NCBI RefSeq assembly: GCF_009914755.1 | Contig: NC_060947.1 | Length of the DNA stretch: 64,000 nt | Origin: the human T2T-CHM13v2.0 reference genome, Homo sapiens | Strand: one strand, 5' to 3' | Shown: piece by piece, positions 4,522 through 55,999 of the stretch | Layout of the letters: each line of letters begins with the position of its first letter | Position numbering within the stretch: the first letter of the stretch is position 1 | Notes under the pieces: generated by a model | Told to the model about the DNA's origin: nothing | Databases searched by the model: none | What the model saw: the letters and a program-made list of their open reading frames with translations, nothing else | Made by a program: the position numbers and the translations under genes

Positions 4522-7500
4522 TTATCTACTTGTTCCTTACTGAAGATGCTCTATGAGATGTTATTCTGAGCTACACTCCTTTCTCTGAGCGTGAGCTCCT
4601 GGTGTGGTCAGCCCCATTCAAACTTATGGCAGAATGCAGGGATAATGAGGCTACAAGAAAAGCTCTAGTCACCGTCCCCCAAGACAAGGATCAGGGCCCT
4701 GCTCAGAAAATTACTCAGAAAATTACTCTTCCCCTCCTCAATGGACCATGTTTTTCTGATGGACAACTTTTGAACCTTTACGACTCAGCTTTAAGCATCA
4801 TATCATTTGTGAAGTCTTCTCTGACTCCCCAGAAAAAAACTGATTACATCTTCCTTTAGGCCATCTCTATGCTTGTTATAAATGCCTCTATTATAGCACT
4901 AATAATTCTGAATTAGCTTTTCATTTCTGAAATGAACAAATGGCTATAAATAAGGTAAAGGATGTGTTAGAAACAGTAGGAGATAAAAGTTAGAGTCAAA
5001 TCTTGGAGGGTCTTAAACACTTAGCAGAGAGGCTTGAACTGAATGAGAGCAAGATTGGGGGACAACAATTACTTTTGTACAAGGGACATAGCAAAACAAG
5101 TGTTCATTATCGTTGGAGTAAAGGCATAGAGGTGGGAATTATCCTAAATTTCATGAGACTACCTATATGTTGAGGAGGTGGGGGAACTAGTGAGAACCCA
5201 GGCATGACCCTGTGGGACGCAGACTGAACTGCCAGCCAATTTCATGATACAAAGGCTTCTTTCTTTTATGACAAATGGATCCAAGTAAAGTCCTGAAGAC
5301 CATAACAAGCAGCTACTACAGGGTCTCTTGGCAGCTCCATATAGGAGCATGAAGACTGGGCTGGGTAAGAGATGAACGGATAGGGATACGGCCTACTCAC
5401 AGACGGCATTGGGACCTGTAGCCCATTTTGCTTTGGACCATTTAGGATGTAAGAGAGAATGAGAACAACTAGGTCCAAATCCCAATCCACACTGTGCTGT
5501 GGTCTACCTAAGGAGTCAGCTCAGGAACGGCCCTTACATACACACACATCACTGGCAGCCCTTAGTGTTTCCACACAGCAGGGAAAAAGCAACCTTCCCA
5601 GCAGCCTGTGCAAAGGCCAAGCAGCTTAGAGGGCCCTGGAGAAAAGATTCAGAAGGTATAAAAGGGCATAGGGTGTGGTTGAGCACAATGACCAGCAAAT
5701 ATTTTAGACTTCTGCTTCAAAGTGGGCTTGACCTGTACCGACAAACAAGGCAGAAAGAGCCCCAGCTTGGTTTTGGCCTGACTTCAGAGGGGGACAAAAA
5801 GTGCCCACAAACAGCCAGTCATGAAACAATATTTGCTCCCTCTGGAAAATCATGGCCTTTAGCACATTCCCCAGAATTACGTCAACCAGGGAACAGTGCC
5901 AAAAATGTGACTTTCATGTTTCTGCAGCAACAGATGATTTCCTCTCTCCACTTGGCTTTTTTTCTTGTATGTATAAATAAAAGAGCCAGTCAATCGCTCA
6001 AAAAATATGAACAACTTAAGCATTTCCAGGCTTTACAAGTAGTAATTATTAATAGAAGCAAGTGACCATGCATACTAGAAATGTTATTTCACATATTCCT
6101 TTTCTGGTTTCTTAAAGGAGATTTATATATGTGGCCAGGCTGAACTGAAATAATAACAGTTGACACAATGACCACATGAAAATGGACTTTTCCTCACTTG
6201 ATTTATGTCACCAAACTTGCATATAAATGTTCCATTTTGTCTGCTCGAAGATTCTTAAGCCTGGGGACAGAGGACAGGAGGTCACCCAGCCCACAGAGCC
6301 TGAGAAGAGAATCCACCAGGAAAAAAAAAAAAGATAATGGAAACATCAGGGAAGCTCAGCTGTGTAACTGGACCACTGTTTTTTGGACTTAGCCAGAGGC
6401 CATTGTAAAATCCAACAATGGGTGAAAAGCAATATTCATTGCTCATTTCTTGCCTTCAACTTCTATCCCTTCATACTTAATCCTTGTCTAATCTGCCTTT
6501 CATCCTGATCAATAACATTTCTTATAACTCTGGAAGCAAAATGTCTTACTGCTTGACTACCTTGACTGATCTCTTTCCTTTCTCTCCACCAAATATTTGT
6601 CGCATCAGCACTCCCAATATGACAGAGGCATAGAGAATTTGCCCAGCTACATAGCTTAGTTCTAGTTACACTATATCTAACAGCTTTTCAGTCTGAGTTA
6701 TACCTGGAGCTATAAAGGGAACTAGGGCCTAAAAATGTTTCCATCTGCTCAGGTGAAGAATTCTTCCTGATTAACCTATAACTGAATGGGCTACTTACTT
6801 GTCCGTAACTTATGTGAATAGTCTGCTCTACCACTAAAAGGATTTTGCCCTCTAGCTGCTAGTTATCTAGCTATCTAACTGAGGGAGGGCTGCCCCCTTC
6901 CAGGAGGTGGAAATAGAGAAGCCAAAATATACGTCTCTGTGGTAAAACACTGGAGTGAATTTTTACTTAGAAACATGCTACAGTCAGGTGTCAAATAGCC
7001 AAGGAATGCCAGCTAAATTTGCATCAAGAATTGATACTAAGCAAAAAGCAATTAAAATTAAGCTGGAGCCAGTTCTTTACCTTCCCAGACTTCAGGAGAC
7101 AACTTAAAAGACCAGTTTTCGGGGGTGGAGCCAAGATGGCCAAATAGGAACAGCTCCAGTCTACAGCTCCCAGCATGAGTGACGCAGACGGTGGGAGATT
7201 TCCGCATTTCCAATGGAGGTACTGGGTTCATCTCACTGAGGAGTGTCAGAAAGTGGGTGAAGGACAGTGGGGCCAGTGCACCGAGCATGAGCCAAAGCAG
7301 GGTGAGGCATTGCCTCACCTGGGAAGTGCAAGGGGTCAGGGAATTCCCTTTCCTAGTCAAAGAAAGGGGTGACAGATGGCACCTGGAAAATCGGGTCACT
7401 CCCACCCTAATACTGCACTTTTCCAATGGTCTCAGCAAACGGCACACCAGGAGATTACATCCCACGCCTGGCTCTGAGGGTCCTACGCCCACAGAGCCTC

Positions 7501-8148
7501 ACTCATTGCTAGCACAGCAGTTTGAGATCAAACTGCAAGGCAGCAGTGAGGATGGGGGAGGGGCCACTGACATAGCTCAGGCTTGAGTAGGTAAACAAAG
7601 TGGCCTGAAAGCTCCAACTGGGTGGAGCCCACAGCAGCTCAAGAAGGCCTGCCCGCCTCTATAGACTCAACCTCTGGGGGCAGGGCATAGCCAAACAAAA
7701 GGCAGCAGAAACCCCTGCAAACTTAAACGCCCCTGTCTGAGAGCTTTGAGGAAAGTAGTGGCTCTCCCAGCATGCAGCTGGAGATCTGAGAATGGACAGA
7801 CTGCCTCCTCAAGTGGGTCTCTGACCCCCGAGTAGCCTAACTGGGAGGCACCCTCCATTAAGGGCAGACTGACACCTCACCCAGCCAGGTACTCCTCTGA
7901 GACAAAACTTCCAGAGGAACGATCAGGCAGCAACATTTGCTGTTCACCAATATCTGCTGTTCTGCAGCCTCTGCTGCTGATACCCAGGCAAAAAGAGTCT
8001 GGAGTGGACCATCGGCAAACTCCAACAGACCTACAGCTGAGGGTCTTGACTGTTAGAAGGAAAACAAACTAACAAAAAGGGCATCCACACCAAAACCCCA
8101 TCTGTACAGCACCATCTTCAAAGACCAAAGGTAGATAAAACCACAAAG

Positions 8149-55800: not shown

Positions 55801-55999
55801 CCGAGTGAGACAATGCCTTGCCCTGCTTTGGCTCGCGCACGGTGCGCTGCACCCACTGTCCTGCGCCCACTGTCTGGCACTCCCTAGTGAGATGAACCCG
55901 GTACCTCAGATGGAAATGCAGAAATCACCCGTCTTCTGCGTTACTCATGCTGGGAGCTGTAGACTGGAGCTGTTCCTATTCGGCCATCTTGGCTCCTCC
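49838..55999 (-). mobile_element. Full-length LINE-1, L1PA3-like 5' end (copy C), ORFs disrupted, no TSD found
   Basis: 5' GGAGGAGCCAAGATGGCCG on minus at 55999; ORF1 ATG 54965; ORF2 ATG 53885; 364-aa RT fragment with FADD; T-rich tail at 49838-49865. Confidence 0.98.

What the first reader, a model, noticed from the sequence alone, without database searches (positions are those of the whole stretch)
7121..55999. Three neighbouring L1PA copies are sequence mosaics of each other: candidate local L1-to-L1 gene-conversion network
Seen directly: copies A (7.1-13.3 kb, +), B (17.9-21.4 kb, -) and C (49.8-56.0 kb, -) share substitutions in incompatible pairings. A+B share QIEE (about 8738/19783), GGGTCCCATATTC (8938/19572), TEWQ, LISTI, NRY, SSLL, EMP, WWDW, GATGATGCTGG, ATGTTGTCACTC and GGGATATCATT. 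A+C share AATAGCGGATC (RLIAD; 8893/54209) and CCAGGACTGCCC (TRTAL; 9072/54029). B+C share ALNTER (19401/53991), GETGTL, IQLK and TTGGCTACATAAATG. In the last 300 bp of ORF1 the pairing switches A+C, A+B, A+C, B+C. C also has an L1PA3-type 5' end with an L1PA4-type 3' end, and B shows the reverse. From memory of the L1PA consensus, these states are non-consensus and mostly not CpG decay. Inference: no single tree explains this, so short-tract non-allelic conversion among physically close copies is the most economical explanation.
Basis: partly seen in the sequence, partly recalled or inferred. Interest (0 to 1): 0.8.

Follow-up and report, generated by a model that had tools for sequence, protein, structure and literature searches.

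The report
Two neighbouring L1 copies exchanged sequence
Two old, dead L1 retrotransposons lying head-to-head 4.7 kb apart on the human X chromosome share a set of private mutations found nowhere else in the genome, most likely because short stretches were copied between them, while the third copy shares no more with them than unrelated copies do.

Summary
The listed motifs are all present in the stated pairs, and the shared states are non-majority among dispersed L1PA copies. The three pairings differ.

A (7121-13267, +) and B (21395-17922, -) share 14 rare states in 3.37 kb against 2.9 expected. No control pair of dispersed copies reaches this, 0 of 365 per kb and 0 of 105 after normalising. 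Two two-site haplotypes occur genome-wide only in A and B.

These states are absent from the first 950 bp. They interleave with B markers that A lacks and dispersed copies carry. All 7 in ORF2 change the protein, one hitting a Cys of the CWWDC motif.

Best reading: independent insertions followed by short-tract non-allelic gene conversion between inverted neighbours.

A-C (7 observed, 4.7 expected) is background. B-C (6 observed, 2.4 expected) is borderline, and its tested haplotype also sits in 8 dispersed copies. C's two-type make-up fits a transitional subfamily. B is one type throughout.

The result is one converting pair, not a three-way network, and an instance of a known process. A triplet recombination test was not significant. 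No ape orthologues were available.

The parts
7121..13267 (+). Copy A: full-length, decayed L1PA element of the older cluster X, with a poly(A) run at its 3' end
   Evidence: BLAST. ORF1 Pfam domains Transposase_22, Tnp_22_dsRBD and Tnp_22_trimer. X state at 58 of 67 scored diagnostic sites. Several stops and frameshifts.
17922..21395 (-). Copy B: L1PA element of cluster X with both ends present and an internal 2,676-base deletion (A-equivalent 9280-11947, junction at window 19239)
   Evidence: X state at 47 of 51 scored diagnostic sites. Poly(A) tail and flanking 13-base direct repeat.
49842..55999 (-). Copy C: full-length decayed L1PA. It is Y-type from the 5' end to about window 52166 and X-like from about 51854 to the 3' end. 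It is not shown to take part in any exchange.
   Evidence: Rare sharing with A and B is at or near background.
13268..17921 (.). Spacer between the inverted copies A and B. It has no inverted homology outside the L1 sequence.
   Evidence: all long inverted arms lie within 7121-13263 and 17922-21395. The innermost arms are 4,658 nt apart.
12327..12655 (+). Densest block of A+B-only states in A: 12327C, 12373C, 12449T, 12507T, 12528C, 12655G
   Evidence: Genome-wide, 12507T+12528C is exact only in A and B, as is 12327C+12373C. All six change the ORF2 residue.
18529..18860 (-). The same block in B. Here it interleaves with 18926 (12261C), 18710 (12474T) and 18560 (12624C), which A lacks and C carries.
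   Evidence: The pair 12474T+12624C is found in 8 dispersed copies, none of which carries an A+B state.
8075..9130 (+). Further A+B rare states in A: 8075A, 8109G, 8738G, 8941T, 8944C, 9130T (B: 20445, 20415, 19784, 19581, 19578, 19389)
   Evidence: The 8941T+8944C 22-mer has 4 hits genome-wide. 8738G is a 0.7% variant, 31 exact hits of 4,228 within one mismatch.
12960..13123 (+). Two more A+B rare states, 12960T and 13123T (B: 18224, 18062)
   Evidence: with a panel of only 10 copies here. Not tested genome-wide.
20919..21279 (-). B 5'UTR stretch carrying states shared with the dispersed copy L010 (chromosome 5) and absent from A: A-equivalent 7237A, 7248C, 7329T, 7598G
   Evidence: Genome-wide, the 24-mer has 13 hits and the 21-mer 18 hits, and only B and L010 are in both lists.
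21405..21417 (.). Candidate target-site duplication of B, 5'-flank copy. It lies 9 bases from the L1 start.
   Evidence: 12 of 13 bases match 17877-17889. Local alignment score 21, against a null 95th percentile of 18 and 99th of 22.
17877..17889 (.). Candidate target-site duplication of B, 3'-flank copy directly after the poly(A) tail

Best explanation
A and B are two separate insertions of the same older L1PA subfamily. They lie in inverted orientation with 4,658 bp between them. After insertion, while still very similar, they exchanged short stretches by non-allelic (interlocus) gene conversion, somewhere between A-equivalent 8075 and 13123. This happened either in several events or as one discontinuous tract. 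Private mutations that one dead copy had already acquired were thereby copied into the other. Both copies then decayed independently by about 3% each. C was not demonstrably involved. Its matches to A or B are parallel mutations or minor variants that also occur in dispersed copies, and its mixed type reflects a transitional subfamily.

Shown: the excess of shared states, its genome-wide uniqueness, its patchiness, and the coding effects. Inferred: the mechanism, the number of tracts, the direction and the timing.
For: 1. Excess. There are 14 A-B rare shared states in 3,366 columns against 2.9 expected from private loads (Poisson P = 2.6e-6). The normalised ratio is 3.90, against a maximum of 3.38 in 105 same-subfamily control pairs. 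The rate is 4.16 per kb, against a mean of 0.39 and a maximum of 2.74 in 365 control pairs.

2. Uniqueness. The 30-mer with 12507T+12528C is exact only in A and B. All 98 one-mismatch hits keep only one of the two states; by my count from the listing, 75 keep only 12507T and 23 only 12528C. The pair 12327C+12373C occurs only in A and B. The 8941T+8944C 22-mer has 4 hits: A, B, an unrelated Y-type copy and an old L1 of 70-73% identity.

3. Mutation spectrum. Four of the 14 states are transitions, against 72% of 712 homoplasies among control pairs.

4. Independent origin.
- B has its own poly(A) tail and a 12-of-13 flanking repeat.
- There is no inverted homology outside the L1 sequence.
- B's 5'UTR shares 4 panel-unique states plus 6 low-frequency states with L010. 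A has 2 of these 10. Those haplotypes are dispersed, with 13 and 18 hits genome-wide.

5. Patchiness.
- No shared state falls among the first 78 informative sites, 7121-8074 (permutation P = 0.00055). The scan statistic gives P = 0.033.
- The split is 6 shared against 16 private sites in 12301-12700, but 0 against 16 in 11948-12300.
- Within 400 bp, all four combinations of the 12474T/12624C marker and the A+B states exist: 8 dispersed copies, B, A, and the majority.

6. Arisen in a dead copy. All 7 shared ORF2 changes are non-synonymous. They include Q-to-P and C-to-W at the last Cys of CWWDC. A CWWDC-to-SWWDS mutant has reduced ORF2p in RNPs and reduced RT activity (PMC2951350, passages).

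7. Setting. Elevated conversion between Alu copies within about 10 kb, with hotspots on the sex chromosomes, is reported (PMC6598467 and PMC8230782, passages).
Against: - A 3SEQ-like triplet test (child B, parents A and L010) is not significant (P = 0.72), and neither is the same test with any of the other 14 X-type copies as second parent.
- A is not among the 40 best genome-wide matches of B, in A-equivalent 12301-12700 or in 8700-9100, and B is not among those of A. Overall A-B identity exceeds typical X-X pairs by only 1-2.5 points.
- The interleaving requires at least 3 separate patches within 330 bp, or patchy repair of one heteroduplex.
- 8738G is a 0.7% dispersed variant, and about 3 of the 14 states are expected by chance.
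- The highest control ratio, 3.38, is close to the A-B ratio of 3.90.
- The heterogeneity tests are moderate: chi-square P = 0.029 and Fisher P = 0.015. The 5'UTR contrast was chosen after seeing the data.
- The panel is small: 30 long copies, and only 10 at the extreme 3' end. It was chosen by similarity to A.
- L010 lacks 12474T, so B's 'lineage markers' do not themselves fit one tree.
- No target-site duplication was found for A or C.
- No shared indel exists to corroborate the exchange.
- No orthologous sequences could be examined.
Confidence: 0.6

Rival explanations
1. Common descent without conversion. B is a retrotransposed daughter of A, or A of B, or both are the only two offspring of one rare source, and the copy happened to land 4.7 kb away. 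The shared states are the parent's mutations. All differences arose later.
For: The shared states run across 5 kb of element coordinates, 8075-13123. The haplotypes are unique to the pair. B has poly(A) and a flanking repeat, as a retrotransposed copy would. The triplet test sees no mosaic.
Against: - No shared state falls in the first 78 informative sites, although the 5'UTR mutates fastest.
- B's 5'UTR groups with the chromosome 5 copy L010, not with A.
- B carries 12474T/12624C among the shared states while A does not.
- All 7 shared ORF2 changes alter the protein, one in the CWWDC motif. The parent would therefore have needed mobilisation in trans.
- From general knowledge, not a call: a random insertion lands within 10 kb of its parent with a chance of about 3 in a million.
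Confidence: 0.13
2. One reading: all three copies, including C at 28-36 kb, exchanged short tracts. B would act as a hub that matches A at some sites and C at others.
For: B-C share 6 rare states against 2.4 expected (P = 0.036). Three of them lie within 364 bp, interleaved with the A+B states. 12261C is shared by B and C but is absent from the 8 dispersed carriers of 12474T+12624C. A has Y-like states at 8321, 8345, 9145, 12925 and 13203 that C also has.
Against: - A-C is at background: 7 against 4.7, and 62 of 225 controls are as high.
- For B-C, 16 of 225 control pairs are as high, and B shares as much with dispersed L013 and L010 (1.7 per kb).
- The tested B+C haplotype is dispersed, with 10 genome-wide hits.
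- Four of the 6 B-C states are transitions, as in homoplasy.
- A's Y-like states at 8321 and 8345 flank X states at 8330 and 8332, so no tract from C fits.
- The dispersed X copy L002 has as many Y-like states as A.
Confidence: 0.12
3. DNA-level inverted duplication of one L1 copy. The flanks were later lost and both copies decayed, with no gene conversion.
For: The copies are inverted and 4.7 kb apart, and they uniquely share mutations that look post-insertional.
Against: - Homology stops exactly at the L1 ends.
- B has its own poly(A) tail and flanking repeat.
- The shared fraction is not uniform: 0 of 78 informative sites at the 5' end, against 6 of 22 in 12301-12700.
- B's 5'UTR matches a dispersed lineage.
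Confidence: 0.05
4. There is nothing local at all. The A-B sharing is chance homoplasy plus membership of a small dispersed sub-lineage that the sampling missed.
For: The panel is small and similarity-selected. The genome search scores only 40 candidates per query. 8738G turned out to be dispersed, with 31 hits. One control pair reaches a ratio of 3.38.
Against: Exact pattern scans of the whole genome find two independent two-site haplotypes only in A and B. The spectrum, 4 of 14 transitions, is unlike homoplasy at 72%. The Poisson P is 2.6e-6.
Confidence: 0.05

Closest known systems
Non-allelic gene conversion between neighbouring Alu elements (Aleshin and Zhi 2010, and Zhi 2007, as described in PMC6598467 and PMC8230782; I saw passages of those two papers only)
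   Same: Dispersed retrotransposon copies of independent origin share non-diagnostic mutations when they lie within about 10 kb of each other. Hotspots on the sex chromosomes are reported. Here the pair is 4.7 kb apart on the X.
   Different: The elements here are 6-kb L1PA copies rather than 300-bp Alus. This is one dissected pair, not a genome-wide statistic. The tracts appear discontinuous, and the pair is inverted.
L1 gene conversion and recombinant L1 elements. Burton et al. [quoted passage not shown] Recombinant young L1s were screened in PMC13192797 (passages).
   Same: L1 sequences with mosaic ancestry. PMC13192797 classed 35 of 2,267 young L1 consensus sequences as high-confidence or probable recombinants.
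   Different: Those cases concern young or active lineages, or whole-element replacement. Here two old dead copies share post-insertional mutations, and the partner is identifiable next door.
Arm-to-arm gene conversion in inverted repeats and palindromes (recalled general knowledge; no paper read here)
   Same: Inverted orientation, a short spacer, and non-reciprocal transfer that keeps the arms similar.
   Different: The arms here are only 83-97% identical and were never one duplicated segment. Homogenisation was slight and stopped long ago.
Stepwise L1PA subfamily succession, including the 129-bp 5'UTR deletion fixed in L1PA3 (bioRxiv 10.1101/429613, passages)
   Same: It explains C. An element carrying only part of the younger subfamily's changes is a transitional form. 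Six late-Y panel copies lack the two diagnostic sites in this stretch, and L091 lacks about 123 bp (A-equivalent 7896-8018).
   Different: It does not explain the A-B states, which no dispersed copy shares.

Membership tests
LINE-1 (L1PA) retrotransposon copies | ORF1 with the L1 trimerisation, RRM-like and dsRBD-like domains | tested here: met
   A 8417-9172 matches Tnp_22_trimer (1.1e-22), Transposase_22 (1.8e-56) and Tnp_22_dsRBD (8.3e-44). B and C align to A along this stretch.
LINE-1 (L1PA) retrotransposon copies | Full-length architecture with a 3' poly(A), and thousands of similar genomic copies | tested here: met
   First-look candidates numbered 2,377, 883 and 2,409 for 401-bp queries, with best hits at 95-96%. 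Poly(A) runs are present. The ORF2 C-domain motif CWRGCGE[IT]GTLLHCWWD[CW] is present.
LINE-1 (L1PA) retrotransposon copies | Named subfamily (L1PA3, L1PA4 or L1PA5) by diagnostic positions of reference consensus sequences | not testable with these tools
   No Dfam or RepeatMasker library was available. Only my own clusters X and Y could be defined.
Non-allelic (interlocus) gene conversion between dispersed repeats | The two copies are of independent origin | tested here: inconclusive
   For: B's poly(A) and 12-of-13 flanking repeat, no flank homology, and B's 5'UTR states shared with L010 but not with A. Against: no duplication was found for A, and L010 lacks B's 12474T.
Non-allelic (interlocus) gene conversion between dispersed repeats | Shared derived states that other family members lack | tested here: met
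   14 observed against 2.9 expected. Two haplotypes occur genome-wide only in A and B.
Non-allelic (interlocus) gene conversion between dispersed repeats | Tract-like distribution incompatible with one tree | tested here: inconclusive
   For: 0 shared states among the first 78 informative sites (P = 0.00055), scan P = 0.033, and all four marker combinations within 400 bp. Against: the triplet test gives P = 0.72.
Non-allelic (interlocus) gene conversion between dispersed repeats | Physical proximity of donor and acceptor | tested here: met
   The spacer is 4,658 nt.
Non-allelic (interlocus) gene conversion between dispersed repeats | Orthologues in other species showing the state before and after conversion | not testable with these tools
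   No other primate genome is held.
Non-allelic (interlocus) gene conversion between dispersed repeats | GC-biased direction of the transferred changes | tested here: inconclusive
   Of the 14 states, 4 are weak-to-strong, 6 strong-to-weak and 4 neutral. I counted these from the list.

The most novel reading that the evidence does not exclude
B is a hub in a real local exchange network. It traded discontinuous micro-tracts of tens of bases with inverted A at 4.7 kb, and also with same-orientation C at 28 kb. If so, decayed L1 copies tens of kilobases apart keep exchanging sequence in patches too small for standard recombination tests to detect.
Probability: 0.12. Interest if true: 0.45.

Novelty: new member of a known kind. 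Interest (0 to 1): 0.3.

Why it matters
Ages and family trees of L1 copies are computed on the assumption that each copy decays alone after insertion. A neighbouring pair that shares about 12 copied mutations shows, at single-site resolution, how local conversion breaks that assumption. It also shows that the signal can escape identity ranking and triplet recombination tests. The case gives a concrete locus for dating L1-L1 conversion once ape T2T orthologues are compared. It also shows that most 'incompatible pairings' among three decayed repeats are private mutations, subfamily states and homoplasy. The process itself is already known for Alu and other repeats, so this is one example and does not add a new mechanism.

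Tried and rejected
I used 60 short stretches, 2 long loci and 8 short stretches. The other 40 of the 100 listed hits were never fetched.
- Long-query genome search gave poorly chosen relatives of 89-93% identity, scoring 40 of 42,002 candidates.
- My first codon-frame projection was out of frame and is discarded. The second is partly out of frame at the ORF1 start: its 'shared TGA at 8291' is not in the ORF1 frame. No stop or frameshift shared by A and B was found.
- The shared rare indels all fall in B's deletion or are single bases, and are not usable.
- The triplet (3SEQ-like) test was not significant for any of 15 second parents.
- Identity ranking is uninformative. A and B are never in each other's top 40, because little-decayed dispersed copies score as high.
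- L091, the chromosome 4 copy sharing the 8941T+8944C haplotype, shares none of the other 12 A+B states and is Y-type. The old L1 L092 is 70-73% identical. So that haplotype marks no sub-lineage.
- The other L1PA fragments in the window (41792-42307, 58892-59286, 63141-63997) share 0-3 rare states with A, B or C, so there is no sign of further partners.
- Target-site duplications of A and C were not found.
- Pfam found nothing in two ORF2 fragments of A. One reference with stop codons was rejected.
- Earlier findings of this scan were not open.
- The transition fraction of the A+B states does not differ significantly from that of private mutations (P = 0.10).
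Full report
**What is there**

The window is human chrX. BLAST of A against the window and a three-way alignment define three L1PA copies:
- A, 7121-13267 (+), full length.
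- B, 21395-17922 (-), with both ends present but lacking A-equivalent 9280-11947 (2,676 columns).
- C, 55999-49842 (-), full length.

Per-250-column identities run from 81.5% to 96.8%. No stretch is near-identical, which rules out assembly or polishing chimerism. A's ORF1 carries the three L1 ORF1 Pfam domains. All three copies are dead, with several stops and frameshifts. Inverted homology between A and B is confined to the L1 sequence, and the innermost arms are 4,658 nt apart.

**Checking the observation**

Three sequences alone cannot be 'incompatible', because each two-against-one site may be a private change of the odd copy. So I built a reference panel from the same genome:
- 29 long loci from a search with A, plus one chromosome 4 copy.
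- 60 stretches of about 440 bases equivalent to A 8700-9140. These were drawn from the best hits of A, B and C.

In the 3.4 kb that all three copies share there are 452 variable three-way sites. At 362 of them the shared state is the panel majority. The remainder are:

| Pairing | Minor (subfamily) states | Rare states (at most 1 panel carrier) |
|---|---|---|
| A+B | 43 | 14 |
| A+C | 8 | 3 |
| B+C | 6 | 6 |

Thirteen further sites have three different states.

**Subfamilies**

The 30 long panel copies split 15 to 15 into clusters that I call X and Y, with 69 diagnostic sites.
- A is X at 58 of 67 scored sites.
- B is X at 47 of 51 scored sites, at both ends. The claim that 'B shows the reverse' is therefore not confirmed.
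- C is Y at 41 of 46 scored sites up to A-equivalent 10949, and X at 13 of 17 from 11261 on.

Dispersed intermediates (L011, L019, L028) show partial mixtures of the same kind. L028 also has the X state at 11261 and 11429, and L019 has it at 12961-12982. C's private load is 29 per kb. That matches L028 (30 per kb) and exceeds the late-Y copies (10-12 per kb).

C is therefore best read as a transitional form in the stepwise L1PA succession. Six late-Y copies lack the two diagnostic sites in one stretch of 5'UTR. L091 lacks about 123 bp there, A-equivalent 7896-8018. This fits the 129-bp deletion reported as fixed in L1PA3 (10.1101/429613, passages). Names beyond that I could not assign.

**Controls for sharing**

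I counted states shared by two copies and carried by at most one other panel copy.

| Pair | Per kb | Observed vs expected | Controls as high |
|---|---|---|---|
| A-B | 4.16 | 14 vs 2.9 (Poisson P = 2.6e-6; ratio 3.90, control max 3.38) | 0 of 105 |
| A-C | 0.89 | 7 vs 4.7 over 6,032 columns (P = 0.2) | 62 of 225 |
| B-C | 1.78 | 6 vs 2.4 (P = 0.036) | 16 of 225 |

- The per-kb figures are for the 3.4 kb that all three copies share. The 365 dispersed control pairs give a mean of 0.39 per kb, a 95th percentile of 1.37 and a maximum of 2.74.
- Expected numbers come from each copy's private load.
- B shares as much with dispersed L013 and L010 (1.7 per kb) as it does with C.
- Three other L1PA fragments in the window share 0-3 rare states with A, B or C.
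- Only the A-B pair stands out.

**Is A-B a dispersed sub-lineage?**

Exact pattern scans of the whole 3.1-Gb genome say no.
- The 30-mer carrying 12507T and 12528C is exact only in A and B. All 98 one-mismatch hits carry just one of the two states.
- The pair 12327C plus 12373C occurs only in A and B.
- The 22-mer with 8941T and 8944C has 4 hits: A, B, a Y-type chromosome 4 copy that shares none of the other 12 A+B states, and an old L1 of 70-73% identity.
- One state is not unique. 8738G has 31 exact hits out of 4,228 within one mismatch, or 0.7%. This is in line with the roughly 3 chance coincidences expected.
- The 14 states are mostly transversions (10 of 14). Homoplasies among control pairs are 72% transitions, out of 712 events.

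**Common descent or conversion?**

Several lines point away from a single shared history.

1. Distribution. None of the 14 states lies among the first 78 informative sites, 7121-8074 (permutation P = 0.00055). The scan statistic gives P = 0.033. Shared against private sites are 6:16 in 12301-12700 but 0:16 in 11948-12300. The three-region chi-square gives P = 0.029.

2. B's 5'UTR. B shares 4 panel-unique and 6 low-frequency states with the chromosome 5 copy L010 in 7223-7598, and A has 2 of these 10. The corresponding haplotypes are dispersed, with 13 and 18 genome-wide hits. Only B and L010 are in both lists. L010 has none of the 12 A+B states that it covers.

3. Interleaving within 400 bp. 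B carries 12474T and 12624C in between the A+B states, and A does not. That pair of states is found in 8 dispersed copies. None of them has any of the six A+B states there. All four combinations of the two marker classes therefore exist.

4. Retrotransposition marks. B has its own poly(A) tail and a 12-of-13 flanking direct repeat. Its alignment score is 21, against a null 95th percentile of 18 and 99th of 22.

5. Coding effects. All 7 shared changes in ORF2 are non-synonymous: E-to-Q, R-to-T, H-to-Y, S-to-L, Q-to-P, C-to-W and K-to-M. The C-to-W change removes the last Cys of CWWDC. A CWWDC-to-SWWDS mutant lowers ORF2p in RNPs and lowers RT activity (PMC2951350, passages). In ORF1, 3 of the 4 shared changes are synonymous. 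The ORF2 changes look like decay in a dead copy that was then copied at the DNA level, not like the signature of an active source.

Together these favour independent insertions followed by short or discontinuous non-allelic conversion between inverted neighbours. The setting matches what is reported for Alu: conversion within about 10 kb, with hotspots on the sex chromosomes (PMC6598467 and PMC8230782, passages).

**Evidence against, and limits**

- A triplet recombination test is flat (P = 0.72 with L010 as second parent, and not significant for the other 14). Private mutations swamp it.
- A and B never appear in each other's 40 best genome-wide matches.
- Their identity exceeds that of typical X-X pairs by only 1-2.5 points.
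- The mosaic needs at least three patches in 330 bp, or patchy heteroduplex repair.
- B's own markers do not fit one tree, because L010 lacks 12474T.
- The panel is small, was selected by similarity, and has only 10 copies at the extreme 3' end.
- The 5'UTR contrast was noticed after the fact.
- No target-site duplication was found for A or C.
- No orthologues were available, so direction and date are unknown.
- B-C retains a weak residue. 12261C is shared by B and C but not by the 8 dispersed carriers.

**Verdict**

It does not hold for a three-copy network. The phenomenon is a known kind, so interest is modest.

Noticed in passing
window 19230-19250 (junction at 19239): B's internal 2,676-base deletion removes the A-equivalent 9280-11947, from early ORF2 through most of the RT region. 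The two BLAST segments overlap by one base at the junction. Whether the deletion came before or after the exchange with A is unknown.
   Followed up: partly
window 15083-15227: An AT-rich, (AT)n-like self-complementary stretch lies in the spacer between A and B. Such sequences can be fragile. No link to the exchange was tested.
   Followed up: no
L092 (G000:C8:112813182-112819528): An old L1 of only 70-73% identity to A carries the exact 22-mer with the 8941T/8944C state that is otherwise restricted to A, B and one chromosome 4 copy. Ancestral state, coincidence or template is unresolved.
   Followed up: partly
window 8944 / 19578 / 54167 region (ORF1 codon 176): All three copies differ from the panel (CCA) at the same third codon position. 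A and B have CCC and C has CCT, all synonymous.
   Followed up: no
L093 and L094 (G000:C1:60088576-60089046 and 60097558-60098028): Two L1 stretches 9 kb apart on chromosome 1 are identical at every variable column shown. This is probably a local duplication, so the 8 dispersed carriers represent 7 independent copies.
   Followed up: no
and one search hit lists, contig C9: Six chromosome 9 places (135467, 40678212, 42143151, 42377206, 80081714, 80453156) recur with equal scores in the lists for both A and C. They are likely segmental-duplication copies of one L1, so the 89-copy panel is not fully independent.
   Followed up: no
window 9128-9130 equivalent in C (about 53982-53984): C has TAG where the panel has TAC (Tyr) and A and B have TAT. 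So the same codon carries a shared synonymous change in A and B and a stop in C.
   Followed up: no
window 49639-48987 and 21983-22468: Older L1 fragments of 70-72% identity to A abut or lie near C and B. C's 3' flank runs straight into L1 3'-end-like sequence.
   Followed up: no
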